NCBI GenBank assembly: GCA_041170785.1
Contig: JBEDND010000146.1
Location: 1 to 48,893, forward strand
Origin: Bacteroidota bacterium
Lineage (GTDB): Bacteria > Bacteroidota > Bacteroidia > NS11-12g > UBA955
Reading direction: 5' to 3'
Length of the DNA stretch: 48,893 bases
Below the pieces are notes generated by a model. The model had not been told where the DNA came from. It was given only the letters and a program-made list of their open reading frames with translations, and ran no database searches. Made by a program: the position numbers and the translations under genes. Shown here one piece after another: positions 38,290-40,844 of this stretch (position 1 is the first letter of the stretch; each line of letters begins with the position of its first letter).

Positions 38290-38871
38290 TTACAACAGCC
38301 TTTTAGGGTTGTTGCTGATAAACTTAGCCCAGGCATCCTTTTTAGCATTCTTTTTGTTCTGTGTGCGGCCAATTTTGCCGGGGTCAGCTTGAAAGAAATG
38401 GCAAACGCTGGCCGCGAGCCCGTCCGTAGCGTCAAACTTTTCCGGAAGAACATCAATAGACATTAATTGTTGTAGTATGGCAGCAACCTGTTCTTTGCTG
38501 GCGCTCCCATTGCCTGTTACGCTTTGCTTGATTTTTCTGGGACTGTATTCGAATACTTCAACATCTTTATCAAGGGCAGCACCAATAGCAACACCCTGAG
38601 CACGTCCCAGCTTCAGCATGCTTTGTACGTTTTTGCCAAAAAATGGAGCTTCTAATGCCATCTCGCCAACACTATGTAACAAGATCAGCTCTGTCATTCT
38701 TATGTGGATACGCTTTAGTCGTTCGGCATGGTCTCTAACTTTCTCCAACCGAAGTACACCCAGGTCAAGCATCTCGAAACGTTTCCCATTACAGCCAATT
38801 ACGCCATACCCAAGAATTTGGGTGCCGGGGTCAACGCCAAGAATGATACGCTCAAAGGAAATTGGTGCCAT
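38290..38871 (-). CDS. ruvC: Holliday junction resolvase RuvC
   Basis: ILGVDPG, LEAPFFGKNVQSMLKLGRAQG, IKQSVTGNGSASKEQV and DATDGLA motifs. Start set at ATG 38871. Confidence 0.97.
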   Translation of the reverse strand: MAPISFERIILGVDPGTQILGYGVIGCNGKRFEMLDLGVLRLEKVRDHAERLKRIHIRMTELILLHSVGEMALEAPFFGKNVQSMLKLGRAQGVAIGAALDKDVEVFEYSPRKIKQSVTGNGSASKEQVAAILQQLMSIDVLPEKFDATDGLAASVCHFFQADPGKIGRTQNKKNAKKDAWAKFISNNPKRLL

Positions 38872-38919
38872 AGTGGCAAAGTTCCGATTTTGTCGGGGCA
38901 TTTTAAATTTTAAATATCC

Positions 38920-38963
38920 GTTGATTCGAACCCGTCCCTACGTTGTAGGGATGCCAGGGCGGC
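38920..38963 (-). repeat. tRNA-Asp-derived repeat B containing a 17-bp palindrome
   Basis: Minus strand reads GCCGCCCTG-GCA-TCCCTAC-AAC-GTAGGGA-CGGGTTCGAATC-AAC. It starts immediately after the GIY-YIG stop codon and is 40/44 identical to 39435-39478. Confidence 0.9.
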
Positions 38964-39233
38964 TCAGAAGATGAACTGTTGCACAATGTTTGTGTGTTCA
39001 GCGATTTTGAACAGGAGTTTTTCCCGGCTGTATTTTTTAATTTTTCGTTCCATGATCAGCGCCTCTGTTTTGGAGGGATAAAGAAAAACTGCCACGAGTT
39101 TCCATGGCCCTTTCTGAGCAGTGGAAGCCACTTCATTGTTGTTGTGTTGTAAGATTCTGATTTTGGGCTGAGCAGAAACTCCCTTGTAAAAACGTCCGTT
39201 GTTGTTTTGGATGATGTAGAGGTAAAAGGACAT
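38964..39233 (-). CDS. Stand-alone GIY-YIG nuclease (89 aa, UPF0213/SLX1-like)
   Basis: FYLY and FYKG (GIY and YIG motifs), RILQHN (catalytic Arg and His), GPWKLV and EALIMERKIK (metal-binding Glu). Start set at ATG 39233, below the tRNA terminator. Confidence 0.88.
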   Translation of the reverse strand: MSFYLYIIQNNNGRFYKGVSAQPKIRILQHNNNEVASTAQKGPWKLVAVFLYPSKTEALIMERKIKKYSREKLLFKIAEHTNIVQQFIF

Positions 39234-39249
39234 AAAACATGCAAATGAG

Positions 39250-39283
39250 AAAAAAAGAAAAGCCCCCATTACTGGGGGCTTTT
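39250..39283 (-). terminator. Intrinsic terminator after tRNA-Asp
   Basis: Minus strand AAAAGCCCCCA-GTAA-TGGGGGCTTTT followed by CTTTTTTT. Confidence 0.85.
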
Positions 39284-39294
39284 GCAACGGATTG

Positions 39295-39368
39295 CGGAAC
39301 GGACGGGACTCGAACCCGCGACCTCCGCCGTGACAGGGCGGCATTCTAACCAACTGAACTACCGATCC
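39295..39368 (-). tRNA. tRNA-Asp(GTC)
   Basis: GGATCGGTAGTTCAGTTGGTTAGAATGCCGCCCTGTCACGGCGGAGGTCGCGGGTTCGAGTCCCGTCCGTTCCG folds as a cloverleaf with anticodon GTC, a GTTCGA T-loop and discriminator G. CCA is not encoded. Confidence 0.97.
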
Positions 39369-39558
39369 GTAAAAGAACAAAGTCGTTAATTTTTAGAGTC
39401 TTGAGGCGACGACCGTTTGACTGTATTTTTAGTAGTTGACTCGAACCCGTCCCTACCCAGTAGGGATGCCAGGGCGGCATGCTGAGCAACTGAACTACCG
39501 ATCCGTAAAAGAACAAAGTCATTAATTTTTAGAGTCTTGAGGCGACGACCGTTTGACT
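39334..39558. repeat. Tandem direct repeat of tRNA leader plus tRNA 5' half (89 bp, 136-bp offset)
   Basis: 39334-39422 versus 39470-39558 differ at 4 positions: 3 in the D-arm region and 1 in the 54-bp leader. Confidence 0.95.
39435..39504 (-). pseudogene. Pseudo-tRNA-Asp (repeat A) with the anticodon-stem 3' strand and variable loop replaced by a palindrome and the acceptor 3' strand missing
   Basis: Minus strand reads GGATCGGTAGTTCAGTTGCTCAGCATGCCGCCCTG-GCA-TCCCTAC-TGG-GTAGGGA-CGGGTTCGAGTC-AAC. Confidence 0.85.
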
Positions 39559-39596
39559 TACCTGCTTCTTTTCAGGGTTTTCCCCATACGGGAGTG

Positions 39597-39604
39597 CAAA
39601 GATA
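39597..39604 (-). promoter_or_regulatory. -7 promoter element of the tRNA-Asp locus
   Basis: Exact TATCTTTG upstream of the first leader copy. Confidence 0.7.
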
Positions 39605-39635: not shown

Positions 39636-40844
39636 TCAGAAATCCGAAGATTTTTTTGTGTTAGGTGTGAAAAACCTGAGAAACAACAAGCCAAGAAACG
39701 CTGCGGTTGCACTGGCAATGAGGATGCTAATCTTTCCTGTTTGAATGAACGTTACATCATGAAAAGCGAGGTTGGCAATGAAAATGGACATCGTAAAACC
39801 TATTCCTGCCAGCATACCCGATCCCAATACGTGGGCGAATCTTACACCTTTTCCTAGTTTTGTAAAGCCCAGCCAATTACTCGCATAGGCGAACAAGGTT
39901 ATTCCCAATGGTTTACCAATGAGCAAGCCTAGGAAAATGCCCATGCTTTCCGGATTTCCAAGAGATTCCATGATTTCAGATTCAAGGATTAAAGCAGTGT
40001 TTGCAAGGGCAAAAAGTGGAATGATGATGAACCCTACCGGTTGATGCAACGCATGTTGGAGTTTGTAGGAAACACTCCCTTTCGTGCCTTGTTCAAAAGG
40101 AATAACAAATGCGAGTAAAACACCTGTAATTGTGGCATGAATGCCGGAATGCATCATGAATATCCACATCAGCAAGCCCGCAGGTAGGTATATCCACAAA
40201 TTCGTGATGCCGCGTTTGGCGAGTATGAAGAGGAAAGCCAGAATGGCCATGGCTAAACCAAAATACAACAGTGAAAATCCATGCCCATAAAAAATGGCAA
40301 TCACGAGAATGGCACCAAGGTCATCAATAATGGCCAATGCAGTGAGGAATACTTTTATACTCAGGGGAACCCGGCCACCTACAAAACTCATGATGGCAAT
40401 GGCAAAGGCGATATCAGTTGCCGTAGGAATTCCAATGCCGCTTAAGGTGTCCGTGCCACGGTTGAACAACCAGTAAATCAATGCGGGAACAATCATTCCC
40501 CCTACAGCTCCGATAACAGGCAACAGCGCACGCTTTCGATCGCTTAGTTCACCGATGTACAATTCACGTTCAATTTCCAATCCAACCATTAAAAAAAAGA
40601 TGGTCATCAATCCATCATTAATCCAATTGGCGATGCTCAGATTAAAGTCCAACGGTCCCAAATTGAAACCCAACTTGTATTCCCAAATAGAAGCATAAGT
40701 ACTTCCGATGCTGCTGTTTGCAATCAATAATGATATGACCGTACAGACAAAGAGCAGAATGCCAGATACCTTTTCGCTTTTTAGAAAGTCTTTGAATAGT
40801 GCGGTTAATCTCAGAGACCTCTTGCTGTTTTTTCCACCGGACAT
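39636..40844 (-). CDS. nhaA: Na+/H+ antiporter NhaA
   Basis: WINDGLMTIFFLMVGLEIERE, IPTATDIAFA, LAIIDDLGA, SGIHATITGV, LIGKPLGI and GIGFTMSIFI motifs. Confidence 0.97.
   Translation of the reverse strand: MSGGKNSKRSLRLTALFKDFLKSEKVSGILLFVCTVISLLIANSSIGSTYASIWEYKLGFNLGPLDFNLSIANWINDGLMTIFFLMVGLEIERELYIGELSDRKRALLPVIGAVGGMIVPALIYWLFNRGTDTLSGIGIPTATDIAFAIAIMSFVGGRVPLSIKVFLTALAIIDDLGAILVIAIFYGHGFSLLYFGLAMAILAFLFILAKRGITNLWIYLPAGLLMWIFMMHSGIHATITGVLLAFVIPFEQGTKGSVSYKLQHALHQPVGFIIIPLFALANTALILESEIMESLGNPESMGIFLGLLIGKPLGITLFAYASNWLGFTKLGKGVRFAHVLGSGMLAGIGFTMSIFIANLAFHDVTFIQTGKISILIASATAAFLGLLFLRFFTPNTKKSSDF

What the first reader, a model, noticed from the sequence alone, without database searches (positions are those of the whole stretch)
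38920..39604. GIY-YIG nuclease plus tRNA-Asp bracketed by palindrome-tagged tRNA-fragment direct repeats: candidate integrase-free tRNA-resident element
Seen, in minus-strand order: promoter, leader, pseudo-tRNA carrying repeat A (39435-39478), second leader, intact tRNA-Asp, terminator, 89-aa GIY-YIG ORF, then repeat B (38920-38963), which begins at the base after the stop codon. A and B are 40/44 identical and 515 bp apart. Relative to the real tRNA they share three derived changes: CTGTCA to CTGGCA, CGGCGGAGGTCG replaced by TCCCTAC-NNN-GTAGGGA, and a break to AAC in the T-stem after TTCGARTC. Known: tyrosine-integrase islands usually duplicate the tRNA 3' end and encode an integrase, and neither holds here. 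SLX1-like GIY-YIG enzymes cut branched DNA, and REP/RAYT systems pair a nuclease with short hairpins. Inference: the nuclease and hairpins form a minimal mobile or self-amplifying module at tRNA genes. Recombination between A and B would delete the nuclease together with the only intact tRNA-Asp at this locus, which could stabilise the element.
Basis: partly seen in the sequence, partly recalled or inferred. Interest (0 to 1): 0.88.

Follow-up and report, generated by a model that had tools for sequence, protein, structure and literature searches.

The report
Small nuclease cassette at tRNA genes
A tiny DNA-cutting enzyme gene sits just behind a transfer-RNA gene and is followed by a hairpin-marked scrap of that same gene, a layout that recurs behind many tRNA genes in related bacteria and behaves like a very small selfish DNA element.

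Summary

This is one locus of a widespread module: tRNA gene, intrinsic terminator, promoter-less single-domain GIY-YIG nuclease of the UPF0213/SLX1-like kind, then a remnant of the same tRNA interrupted by a perfect hairpin.
- Among 80 loci found by protein similarity, 55 have an intact tRNA within 150 bp upstream on the same strand.
- 43 of 49 usable loci carry a fragment of that tRNA within 150 nt after the stop codon, against 0 of 49 control regions.
- 33 of 39 interrupting segments hold a perfect stem of 6 bp or more, against 25 of 780 shuffles.
- Hairpin class follows nuclease clade, not tRNA or host.
- Units are often tandemly amplified.
- At an orthologous tRNA-Leu site in another lineage I found empty, single, double, decayed and deleted states.

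Best reading: a minimal, integrase-free, SegB-like selfish cassette. Cleavage and mobility are not shown for this locus. I found no description in print.

The parts
39636..40844 (-). nhaA (Na+/H+ antiporter), upstream flank; conserved neighbour in the genus
   Evidence: Pfam PF06965 E 2.9e-137. The same neighbour is seen in G006, G007, G002 and G001.
39597..39604 (-). Promoter-like -7 box that would drive the pseudo-tRNA(s) and tRNA-Asp
   Evidence: Read. It matches the Bacteroidota -7 consensus as I recall it, which I did not test. The sigma-70 scan found nothing. A similar box sits upstream of the tRNA in relatives.
39422..39557 (-). 136-nt unit of leader 1 + pseudo-tRNA-Asp + 13-nt spacer; probably about 4 tandem copies in the real genome
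   Evidence: 92-nt repeat, 95% identical, spacing 136. A 166-nt cyclic unitig at depth 59.6 against flanks of about 14. Three exact 136-nt units in G002.
39435..39504 (-). Pseudo-tRNA-Asp: tRNA 5' half with altered D arm, anticodon-loop T>G, hairpin in place of positions 39-50, T-arm 5' strand and loop, no 3' acceptor strand
   Evidence: Not called by ARAGORN or by Rfam at E up to 10.
39435..39478 (-). Repeat A
   Evidence: the repeat finder family D2, 91% identical to B.
39450..39466 (.). Hairpin of A (7-bp perfect stem, 3-nt loop)
39369..39421 (-). Leader 2, directly upstream of the true tRNA
39294..39368 (-). Intact tRNA-Asp (GTC); the only tRNA-Asp among 22 tRNAs found in this 84%-complete assembly
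   Evidence: ARAGORN; Rfam RF00005, 65.6 bits.
39258..39283 (-). Intrinsic terminator, part of the cassette; ends 24 nt before the nuclease start codon
   Evidence: Conserved in G006, G003 and G005.
38964..39233 (-). 89-aa single-domain GIY-YIG nuclease (UPF0213/SLX1-like), no promoter of its own seen; its last codons lie in a degenerate tRNA D-arm-like stretch
   Evidence: PF01541 E 4.2e-13. PDB profile hits 1zg2 at 3.7e-20, 1ywl at 1e-16, SLX1 at 7e-7. AlphaFold model pLDDT 91.3, with Foldseek hits to 1zg2 and SLX1. dN/dS 0.11-0.15 against orthologues.
38920..38963 (-). Repeat B: remnant of tRNA-Asp positions about 27-62 with the hairpin; conserved 3' component of the cassette
   Evidence: Present right after the stop codon in G006, G003, G002 and G005.
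38935..38951 (.). Hairpin of B (same 7-bp stem as A, different loop)
38290..38901 (-). ruvC, downstream flank
   Evidence: Pfam PF02075 E 1.3e-39.

Best explanation
The locus is a vertically inherited copy of a minimal, integrase-free cassette that lives at tRNA genes.

The cassette has three parts: an intrinsic terminator, a promoter-less gene of about 85 aa for a stand-alone GIY-YIG nuclease of the UPF0213/SLX1-like kind, and a hairpin-tagged piece of the host tRNA gene.

Shown here:
- the anatomy of the locus;
- its recurrence behind at least 19 different tRNA anticodons;
- tandem amplification of units;
- linkage between hairpin class and nuclease clade;
- purifying selection on the protein;
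- in another clade, presence/absence, decay and loss at one orthologous tRNA site, where the intact tRNA is followed by the cassette's own terminator and the hairpin-tagged displaced tRNA 3' part is followed by the native terminator.

Inferred:
- The nuclease is made at a low level by read-through of the tRNA terminator.
- It breaks DNA at the tRNA gene or at the extruded hairpin.
- Recombinational repair then uses tRNA sequence on both sides of the cassette as homology arms. This would copy the cassette into cognate tRNA genes, as in homing, and shuffle units by unequal exchange. That would account for the arrays, including the 136-nt leader-plus-pseudo-tRNA units upstream of tRNA-Asp in this genus.
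- The hairpin is the clade-specific cognate site or terminus. It also inactivates the extra tRNA copy and interrupts homology. Loss of the nuclease gene by recombination between tRNA and remnant, or between A and B, would therefore destroy the only tRNA-Asp found in this assembly.
For: Association with tRNA genes.
- 55 of 80 loci have an intact tRNA within 150 bp upstream on the same strand (median gap 41 nt). Four more have one at 150-600 bp, 9 only have a tRNA directly downstream, 5 are cut by contig ends and 7 have none.
- 15 of 29 loci in close relatives show the same arrangement.
- A paralogue in the same genome sits behind tRNA-Arg.

Remnants and hairpins.
- A tRNA fragment lies within 150 nt after the stop codon in 43 of 49 loci, against 0 of 49 controls.
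- 33 of 39 distinct interrupting segments hold a perfect stem of 6 bp or more, against 25 of 780 shuffles.

Hairpin class follows nuclease clade.
- The double hairpin at the T loop occurs in 14 of 39 clade-C loci and 0 of 34 in clades A and B.
- The TCC...GGA class occurs in 10 of 14, 6 of 20 and 4 of 39 loci of clades A, B and C.
- tRNA-Asp loci with a clade-C nuclease carry clade-C-type hairpins.
- This genome holds both classes, one per nuclease clade.

Amplification.
- 22 of 80 loci have two or more nuclease copies.
- G007 has three units at this very locus.
- G002 and G005 have three upstream pseudo-tRNA units.

Mobility and decay. The tRNA-Leu(GAG) series of 9 loci comprises 2 empty, 3 single, 2 double, 1 internally deleted and 1 degenerate. 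The terminator travels with the cassette and a 21-nt tRNA 3' end is duplicated.

Tree. The tRNA label needs 36 changes against 56.4 in shuffles (as low in 0 of 200; minimum possible 22). Lineages therefore keep their tRNA but have switched many times.

Protein.
- The GIY-YIG fold is close to SLX1.
- Y6, G18, R26 and H30 are invariant, and Y16 and E62 nearly invariant, in 13 sequences.
- dN/dS is 0.07-0.20.

Precedent. T4 SegB, a GIY-YIG enzyme encoded among tRNA genes, recognises the T-loop motif, cuts inside tRNA genes and homes (PMC2330249, passages). In T6 its nuclease activity together with homologous recombination gives tandem tRNA-segB units (PMC13096335, passages).
Against: - No cleavage, excision or transfer has been observed.
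- At the nhaA-ruvC site the cassette is present in every relative of the genus in which the region is assembled, and dS reaches 0.65-0.95. This copy therefore looks long fixed, and strong purifying selection over that span is unusual for a purely selfish homing gene.
- The protein has only the catalytic domain. It lacks the DNA-binding domain that gives SegB and I-TevI their specificity.
- The intact tRNA keeps any target sequence, so self-cleavage would have to be tolerated.
- In G043, 9 of 12 double-hairpin sites are not near a nuclease gene. G043 and G044 also hold hairpin-tagged tRNA or tmRNA fragments without an adjacent nuclease gene.
- The hairpins always lie in the sense orientation (20 copies in 14 loci, 0 antisense). 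They show compensatory changes, a conserved bulge and a G-T pair. These features fit an RNA role as well as a DNA one.
- The clades used rest on weakly supported splits (57-89% SH-aLRT), and related loci are not independent.
- RNA folding of A and B alone is unremarkable (z -1.2 and -1.3).
Confidence: 0.58

Rival explanations
1. RNA-level system. The hairpin-bearing pseudo-tRNAs are functional RNAs, for example decoys or an antitoxin-like partner, and the GIY-YIG protein acts with or on them. The layout would then resemble type III toxin-antitoxin loci: repeat array, terminator, nuclease gene. The module persists because its loss is harmful or because it benefits the host.
For: - Tandem pseudo-tRNA units lie between the promoter and the terminator upstream of the nuclease in this genus and at a tRNA-Met locus.
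- A contig from an RNA library spans pseudo-tRNA, leader and tRNA (weak, since DNA can be present in such libraries).
- Hairpins are only in the sense orientation.
- There are compensatory changes, a conserved bulge and one G-T pair.
- dN/dS is low over long divergence, including among old tandem copies.
- The 2006 survey of the superfamily noted a prokaryotic Slx1-cluster domain fused to a TrmH-like tRNA methyltransferase and suggested a role in RNA metabolism (PMC1564403, passage).
Against: - As far as I recall, the characterised GIY-YIG enzymes act on DNA.
- Most loci have no upstream array.
- The pattern of empty, filled, decayed and deleted alleles at one site is what selfish DNA shows.
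- There is no specific match to a known defence or toxin family in PADLOC: none for the window protein and only weak PDC-S14 hits for two paralogues.
Confidence: 0.15
2. No functional link. The nuclease gene is merely a promoter-less passenger that survives behind strong tRNA promoters. The tRNA remnants come from ordinary tandem duplication, and the hairpins are REP-like repeats spread by another system or by replication errors.
For: - The same double hairpins occur in ordinary intergenic DNA and at tRNA or tmRNA ends without a nuclease gene.
- Y1 transposase (RAYT-like) genes exist in G000, G006, G041, G043 and G044.
- Two further copies of this genus's stem lie in a repeat-rich spacer on contig C88.
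Against: - Hairpin class tracks the nuclease clade even within one genome.
- REPs next to the RAYT genes that I looked at are different sequences.
- Remnant and hairpin lie next to the stop codon in 43 and 44 of 49 loci.
- The strict T-loop form was found in only 2 of 401 genomes sampled across the phylum.
- The stem of this genus occurs in 6 of 8 genomes of the genus and 0 of 183 others of the order.
Confidence: 0.15
3. Scar or satellite of a tyrosine-integrase island. The duplicated tRNA pieces are attL and attR, and the small cassette is what remains, or is moved in trans by an integrase encoded elsewhere.
For: - The interruptions sit at the anticodon side or in the T loop. From recall, these are the sublocations that integrases use.
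- In the tRNA-Leu series a 21-nt tRNA 3' end is duplicated, as at att sites.
Against: - There is no integrase in the 734-bp interval.
- B lacks the tRNA 3' end.
- Cassettes are about 0.4 kb.
- A 40-nt hairpin pair separates the two half sites.
- I did not scan the 80 loci for integrases.
Confidence: 0.05
4. Chance similarity or mis-assembly of a metagenome bin.
For: The window comes from a fragmented assembly of 263 contigs, and unitigs break at the repeats.
Against: - The architecture is independently assembled in four congeners.
- 40 of 44 identity.
- Unitig breaks fall exactly at repeat borders, as true repeats would give.
Confidence: 0.01

Closest known systems
SegB of phages T4/T6 (free-standing GIY-YIG homing endonuclease in the tRNA gene cluster)
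   Same: - A GIY-YIG nuclease gene lying among or behind tRNA genes.
- Target and homology lie in tRNA genes: SegB recognises the T-loop motif.
- Nuclease-dependent tandem amplification of a tRNA-plus-nuclease unit by homologous recombination, with the 3' end of the ORF abutting tRNA-like sequence (PMC2330249 and PMC13096335, passages).
   Different: - SegB is a phage protein with a DNA-binding part. The protein here is cellular, about 85 aa, and has the catalytic domain only.
- It belongs to the UPF0213/SLX1-like branch. tblastn against phages found weak matches in only 3 of 50,697 records, and the viral contig scan found none.
- No hairpin-tagged pseudo-tRNAs are described for SegB in the passages I read.
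UPF0213 proteins (BH0048, EF2693) and the SLX1 nuclease domain
   Same: Best sequence and fold matches. Single-domain size matches the UPF0213 proteins. SLX1 cuts branched DNA (titles of the PDB entries).
   Different: - No function or genomic context is attached to UPF0213 in what I could search. One paper holds the word, and it is unrelated.
- SLX1 has a RING domain and a partner, SLX4.
- The tie to tRNA genes and hairpins is not described.
REP/REPIN elements with their RAYT transposases
   Same: - A single small nuclease gene paired with short, lineage-specific hairpin repeats.
- Mostly vertical inheritance.
- One paralogue in this genome (contig C133) is flanked by inverted copies of a repeat, as RAYT genes are.
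   Different: - The enzyme is GIY-YIG, not an HUH Y1 transposase.
- The hairpins are few and sit inside tRNA remnants rather than being dispersed in hundreds.
- The RAYT genes inspected in G000 (2), G006 (1) and G043 (1) carry other REPs or a different flanking hairpin.
- No paper in the library combines GIY-YIG with REP, RAYT or REPIN terms; the one listed GIY-YIG paper holds no REP or RAYT term.
Tyrosine-integrase islands at tRNA genes
   Same: Insertion at a tRNA gene, with duplication of part of the tRNA and restoration of an intact gene.
   Different: - No integrase.
- Cassette of about 0.4 kb.
- The duplicated piece is interrupted by hairpins, and here it is internal to the tRNA, without the 3' end.
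Type III toxin-antitoxin loci (ToxIN-like architecture; recalled)
   Same: Promoter, then a tandem array of structured RNA repeats, then a terminator, then a small nuclease gene.
   Different: - A real tRNA lies inside the unit.
- Most loci lack the upstream array.
- The protein is not of a known type III toxin family.

Membership tests
GIY-YIG nuclease superfamily | Match to the GIY-YIG catalytic domain profile above the curated cut-off | tested here: met
   PF01541, 49.8 bits against a cut-off of 22.6, E 4.2e-13, residues 3-71.
GIY-YIG nuclease superfamily | Conserved Tyr, Tyr, Arg, His and Glu of the active site (their roles are recalled) | tested here: met
   Y6, G18, R26 and H30 are invariant, and Y16 and E62 are at 90% or more, in 13 sequences.
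GIY-YIG nuclease superfamily | Three-stranded sheet with flanking helices, similar to solved members | tested here: met
   Model pLDDT 91.3. Foldseek hits: 1zg2 at E 1e-5; SLX1 7cq3 at rmsd 2.0 over 72 columns.
UPF0213 / SLX1-like branch | Closest solved relatives are UPF0213 proteins and SLX1; single domain of about 90-100 aa | tested here: met
   Profile against PDB: 1zg2 at 3.7e-20, 1ywl at 1e-16, SLX1 at 7e-7. Length 89 aa.
Free-standing homing endonuclease gene (SegB-like) | Nuclease gene next to its presumed target gene, here a tRNA gene | tested here: met
   61-nt gap to tRNA-Asp. 55 of 80 loci show the same.
Free-standing homing endonuclease gene (SegB-like) | Presence/absence polymorphism at orthologous sites, with decay and loss | tested here: inconclusive
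   Not seen at nhaA-ruvC, where all assembled congeners are filled. Seen for another clade at tRNA-Leu: 2 empty among 9 loci. Also seen at tRNA-Arg, which is empty in G007 with a remnant in G004.
Free-standing homing endonuclease gene (SegB-like) | Separate DNA-binding domain giving a long recognition site | tested here: not met
   The 89 aa are filled by the catalytic domain.
Free-standing homing endonuclease gene (SegB-like) | Site-specific cleavage of the allele lacking the gene, and biased inheritance | not testable with these tools
   Needs enzyme assays and crosses.
REP/RAYT system | HUH Y1 transposase as the associated enzyme | tested here: not met
   The enzyme is GIY-YIG. The PF01797 genes of G000 lie on other contigs and have other REPs.
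REP/RAYT system | Many dispersed copies of the hairpin in the genome | tested here: not met
   The stem of A and B occurs at 4 places in this assembly, 2 of them here. By contrast, the double hairpin occurs at 12 sites in G043.
Integrase-type genomic island at a tRNA | Tyrosine integrase gene next to the tRNA, and direct repeats of the tRNA 3' end | tested here: not met
   The only ORF in the interval is the nuclease. A and B lack the 3' acceptor strand.
Type III toxin-antitoxin | Known toxin family with an RNA repeat array upstream of a terminator | tested here: not met
   No PADLOC match for the window protein. The repeat array is present only in part of the loci.

The most novel reading that the evidence does not exclude
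Stand-alone UPF0213-type GIY-YIG proteins and their clade-specific hairpins form an unrecognised class of minimal mobile elements of bacterial chromosomes.
- The cassette homes into tRNA genes, either at the anticodon side or in the T loop.
- It restores the gene with its own copy of the tRNA 3' part and its own terminator.
- It leaves the displaced native part tagged by the hairpin.
- The hairpin is the structure that the DNA-binding-domain-less nuclease recognises.

This would be a hairpin-directed cellular counterpart of SegB, and the first function for the UPF0213 family.
Probability: 0.4. Interest if true: 0.88.

Novelty: new variant of a known kind. Interest (0 to 1): 0.8.

Why it matters
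If the reading holds, several things follow.
- The UPF0213/YhbQ-like proteins, a widespread family with solved structures but no function in what I could search, would gain a biological context.
- It would add a very small integrase-free element, roughly 0.4 kb with one 85-aa protein, to the list of elements that use tRNA genes as landing sites.
- It would extend the SegB principle, a GIY-YIG nuclease driving homing and tandem amplification at tRNA genes, from phages to bacterial chromosomes.
- It would pair a nuclease that lacks a binding domain with a cognate hairpin, which makes structure-directed targeting directly testable.

There are practical consequences too.
- It explains hairpin-interrupted partial tRNA genes that confuse tRNA annotation. 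A preprint on partial tRNA genes, 10.1101/2022.07.05.498093, was seen only in a search listing.
- It may explain why metagenome assemblies break at such tRNA loci: many matches lie at contig ends.
- It may explain why copy number there is under-called.

Tried and rejected
- Rfam. Only tRNA reached threshold in the window region at E up to 10 and in 8 related loci at gathering scores. The hairpin remnants are therefore no described RNA family.
- NCBIfam, PADLOC, PHROGs. Nothing specific. There were weak N-terminal hits to group I intron or homing endonuclease models for paralogues only.
- Phage origin. The viral contig scan found no relative (its sensitivity is limited to one peptide pattern). 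tblastn against phages found 3 weak records of 50,697.
- RAYT as the mover of the hairpins. Y1 transposase genes exist, but the REPs beside the ones I inspected differ. I rejected this as the simplest link, but it is not excluded.
- Empty site in the nhaA-ruvC interval. G001 and G004 lack ruvC in their assemblies. In three other genera ruvC is not next to a tRNA. No comparison was possible.
- Orthologous tRNA-Arg site. Contigs break there in most congeners. Only G007 (empty) and G004 (remnant of the ORF start) were informative, and they lie in a different flank.
- Genome-level co-occurrence of the T-loop hairpin with the nuclease across the phylum. Only 2 of 401 genomes matched the strict pattern, too few for a table.
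- Folding energy of A and B alone. Not different from shuffles, so the case for the hairpins rests on comparison, not thermodynamics.
- A single structure line on alignment A3. The gap placement shifts the register between rows, so I did not run the count of structure pairs and folded the four distinct sequences separately instead.
- The T-loop motif as a universally disrupted target. It is split by the double hairpins, but it is intact in several tRNA-Asp remnants. I therefore did not claim it as the target in this clade.
- Reads. All runs were Logan contigs, so starts, ends, circles and true copy number cannot be read. I saw no contig joining A to B (table 5: none), which proves nothing.
- Literature. 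These searches found no description of the module:
  - GIY-YIG, tRNA gene, Bacteroidetes;
  - GIY-YIG, downstream of tRNA;
  - GIY-YIG, tRNA genes, homing endonuclease, pseudo-tRNA;
  - GIY-YIG with tRNA fragment terms;
  - GIY-YIG with REP/RAYT/REPIN;
  - GIY-YIG with tRNA adjacency phrases;
  - UPF0213;
  - one search was spoilt by a name that matched surnames.
- Limits of the literature check. Subscription journals and supplements are not covered. The supplementary data of PMC13096335, which list SegB homologues, could bear on the novelty claim, and I could not see them.
Full report
**What is in the window.**

Read on the minus strand between nhaA (39636-40844) and ruvC (38290-38901), the 734-bp spacer holds the following, in order:
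- a promoter-like box (39597-39604);
- a 52-nt leader;
- a pseudo-tRNA-Asp (about 39504-39435);
- a 13-nt spacer;
- a second copy of the leader;
- the intact tRNA-Asp(GTC) (39368-39294);
- an intrinsic terminator (39283-39258);
- 24 nt further on, an 89-aa ORF (39233-38964) that matches the GIY-YIG domain (E 4.2e-13);
- starting at the base after the stop codon, repeat B (38963-38920).

Repeat A (39478-39435) is the 3' part of the pseudo-tRNA and is 40 of 44 identical to B, 515 bp away. A second repeat of 92 nt (95% identical, spacing 136) covers the leader plus the tRNA 5' half. Relative to the true tRNA, A and B share three things: the T>G change in the anticodon loop, a 17-nt perfect hairpin in place of 12 nt (positions 39-50), and loss of similarity right after the T loop.

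**The assembly probably understates the locus.**

All four runs were Logan contigs. In the best DNA holder, unitigs break exactly at the repeat borders. A 166-nt unitig (136 + 30, the length of a cycle at k = 31) covers leader, pseudo-tRNA and leader at depth 59.6, against 14.6 and 13.7 in the flanks. The nuclease gene is split between two variants at depths 6.85 and 5.92. The closest relative, G002, has three exact 136-nt units before the true tRNA. G005 has three and G001 at least two. I infer about four units here, but contig depth is not a copy number.

**The same locus in the genus.**
- G006 has nhaA, one tRNA-Asp, terminator, nuclease (80% identical), B and ruvC, and no pseudo-tRNA upstream.
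- G003 and G002 have nuclease plus B plus ruvC up to a contig end.
- G005 has the upstream array and B.
- G007 has one upstream pseudo-tRNA, the tRNA, and then three tandem units. Each unit is nuclease plus a nearly full-length hairpin pseudo-tRNA plus terminator.

B is therefore an old, conserved part of the cassette, and A is a derivative of tRNA 5' half plus B-type sequence. The 7-bp stem is the same in all species. The loops differ, and some are extended by further perfectly paired bases. Across the order, the motif 'anticodon-loop end plus this hairpin' was found in 6 of 8 genomes of the genus, in 0 of 183 other genomes, and in 0 reversed-pattern controls.

The protein is under purifying selection. 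dN/dS is 0.11-0.15 at dS 0.65-0.95 between species. Among the three G007 copies dN/dS is 0.07-0.20 at dS 0.37-0.52, so even the tandem copies are old and maintained.

**The protein.**

A profile of 13 relatives hits the two solved UPF0213 proteins (3.7e-20 and 1e-16) and SLX1 (7e-7). The AlphaFold model (pLDDT 91.3) matches the same entries, with rmsd 2.0 A to an SLX1 nuclease domain. The Tyr, Tyr, Arg, His and Glu positions are conserved. Beyond the catalytic domain there is only a short C-terminal helical tail.

**The pattern is general.**
- The same genome has a paralogue (34% identical) right behind tRNA-Arg(ACG). Between them lies a second copy of the terminator and a tRNA-Arg-like piece whose T loop is replaced by two hairpins.
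- In 40 relatives, 20 of 41 genomes (counting G000) have matches. Many are at contig ends or in tandem, and 15 of 29 loci show a tRNA directly upstream.
- A scan of one genome per species returned 80 loci, mostly Bacteroidota, with a few from Thermodesulfobacteriota, Opitutales, SR1 and others.
- Of those 80 loci, 55 have an intact tRNA within 150 bp upstream on the same strand (median gap 41 nt, 19 anticodons). Four have one at 150-600 bp, 9 only have a tRNA directly downstream, 5 are cut by contig ends and 7 have none. Twenty-two have two or more nuclease copies.
- In 49 usable loci, a fragment of the upstream tRNA lies within 150 nt after the stop codon in 43, against 0 of 49 control regions. 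A perfect hairpin of 6 bp or more is there in 44, against 13.
- I found 43 pseudo-tRNAs in which blocks of tRNA sequence are interrupted. Of 39 distinct interrupting segments, 33 contain a perfect stem of 6 bp or more, against 25 of 780 shuffles.

**Two hairpin classes, tied to the nuclease clade.**
- One class is a single hairpin that starts TCC and ends GGA and replaces some 3-15 nt. At tRNA-Asp of clade A it always follows the anticodon loop.
- The other is a pair of hairpins of about 40 nt. In 10 of 20 copies it is inserted exactly before the T loop. Its second hairpin has a conserved loop and covarying stem across His, Ser, Leu, Gly, Phe, Met and Arg loci and across families.
- On a tree of 73 proteins, the paired class occurs in 14 of 39 loci of one clade and 0 of 34 of the other two. 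The TCC...GGA class occurs in 10 of 14, 6 of 20 and 4 of 39 loci.
- tRNA-Asp loci whose nuclease belongs to the large clade carry that clade's hairpins, not the window's. This genome carries both classes, one per clade.
- The clade splits are weakly supported and related loci are not independent, so this is a pattern and not a test.
- The tRNA label is clustered on the tree (36 changes against 56.4 in shuffles, as low in 0 of 200) but far from the minimum of 22. Lineages are therefore faithful to a tRNA yet have switched repeatedly.

**A discrete insertion with a life cycle.**

Around the tRNA-Leu(GAG) locus of the Maribacter-like genome behind L110, 19 of 26 related genomes matched. Nine loci could be read from the tRNA to a conserved downstream flank.
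- Two are empty: tRNA, native terminator, flank.
- Three have one cassette. In one of these the hairpins are truncated. One has a second unit that is internally deleted.
- Two have two cassettes.
- One has lost the ORF between two 11-nt direct repeats at its ends but keeps the hairpins.
- One has a shortened, diverged ORF.

In filled alleles the intact tRNA is followed by a terminator of one shared type. The hairpin pair is followed by a duplicated 21-nt tRNA 3' end and then by the native terminator. In G601 that terminator is the one that directly follows the tRNA in the empty G603 allele. The terminator, ORF and hairpins thus move as a unit, and the native tRNA 3' part is displaced. Among these orthologues the first hairpin keeps its fold and a one-base bulge, while both stem segments change in a compensatory way. 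At tRNA-Arg, G007 is empty and G004 keeps only the first codons of the ORF.

**How it most likely works.**

The nearest studied system is SegB. That GIY-YIG enzyme is encoded among phage T4 tRNA genes. It recognises a 27-bp site containing the conserved T-loop motif, cuts inside tRNA genes and homes (PMC2330249, passages). In T6 its catalytic activity together with homologous recombination produces tandem repeats of a tRNA-plus-segB unit (PMC13096335, passages).

By analogy I propose the following.
- The small nuclease is made by read-through of the tRNA terminator. The start codon follows the terminator by 24 nt here and by a median of 41 nt after the tRNA in general.
- It causes breaks at the tRNA gene or at the hairpin.
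- Repair uses tRNA sequence on both sides of the cassette. This gives insertion into cognate tRNA genes and unequal exchange between tRNA and remnant, hence the arrays.
- The hairpin would be the cognate structure for a protein that has no binding domain. It would also inactivate the spare tRNA copy.

In this window any recombination between tRNA and B (12 + 12 nt of shared sequence) or between A and B would remove or ruin the only tRNA-Asp found in the assembly (22 tRNAs, 84% complete). All of these steps are inferred.

**What speaks against it, and the rivals.**
- This copy is fixed in its genus and strongly constrained. That fits a useful or addictive function as well as a selfish one.
- The hairpins are always in the sense orientation, they covary with a conserved bulge, and they lie in the tRNA transcript.
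- The 2006 survey noted a fusion of a prokaryotic Slx1-like domain to a tRNA methyltransferase. An RNA-level role is therefore a serious rival.
- In a Chitinophaga-like genome the paired hairpin occurs at 12 sites, only 3 of them near a nuclease gene. Some of the others lie in plain spacers, and some are in tRNA or tmRNA end fragments without a nuclease. The hairpins can therefore exist apart from the gene, either as relics or as independent repeats.
- RAYT genes are present, but the ones I inspected carry other REPs.
- An integrase origin is unlikely, but I did not scan for integrases at all loci.

**Novelty.**

The association of segB with tRNA genes has been surveyed in phage genomes only. 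Seven usable searches and one reading of the superfamily survey found no account of small cellular GIY-YIG genes behind tRNA genes, of hairpin-interrupted tRNA remnants, or of any function for UPF0213. I rate it a new variant of a known kind: a free-standing GIY-YIG element at tRNA genes, with a new and testable feature in the clade-specific hairpin tag.

Noticed in passing
L003:840-1350 (G000 contig C133): A third GIY-YIG paralogue (98 aa, the longer UPF0213-like form) is not next to a tRNA. It is flanked by one inverted and three direct copies of a repeat of about 25-30 nt. That repeat occurs nowhere else in the assembly, apart from one weak 3-mismatch match on contig C241, so the layout resembles an IS or RAYT gene.
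   Followed up: partly
G000 contig C30:1-300 (from the laid genome): At a contig start there is a tandem array of units of about 95 nt, each with two GC-rich hairpins (one of the TCCCGC...GCGGGA kind). It is not a CRISPR array, because there are no spacers.
   Followed up: no
G000 contig C88:11250-11480: Two more hairpins with the same 7-bp stem as A and B lie 198 bp apart in a repeat-rich spacer, with no tRNA-like flanks that I could see.
   Followed up: partly
L141 (G000 contig C116:5890-6600): A Y1 transposase (RAYT-like) gene is followed by five tandem copies of a 50-nt unit. Each unit holds a 7-bp hairpin unrelated to those at the tRNA loci.
   Followed up: partly
window 38964-38990: The last codons of the nuclease ORF are encoded by a stretch that looks like a degenerate tRNA D arm. 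The ORF seems to have grown into an older, longer pseudo-tRNA. In G007 the remnant starts at the D arm right after the stop codon.
   Followed up: partly
L021:1198-1273 and 1744-1819; L079:2262-2337: ARAGORN calls odd tRNAs beside nuclease genes. One has a four-base anticodon next to tRNA-Ala, and one reads a stop codon (anticodon tta). They may be pseudo-tRNA variants without a hairpin.
   Followed up: no
L157, L154, L158 (tRNA-Leu series): An 11-nt direct repeat occurs near both ends of the nuclease ORF and marks the deletion that removed the ORF in G601. Nearly the same point, 2 nt further on, is the breakpoint of the truncated second unit in G606. Arrays in other loci also often end in an ORF cut after 21-60 codons.
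   Followed up: partly
L136 and L138 (G044), L132 (G043): Double-hairpin-tagged duplicates follow what look like 3' ends of tRNA or tmRNA genes, without a nuclease gene beside them. L136 and L138 are identical over the stretch shown, which points to a duplicated region.
   Followed up: no
L049 and L071: Two contigs of one metagenome bin share 91-96% identical flanks but carry four (the fourth truncated) versus one nuclease unit behind tRNA-Gly(GCC). This is probably two strains binned together, and so a case of copy-number polymorphism.
   Followed up: partly
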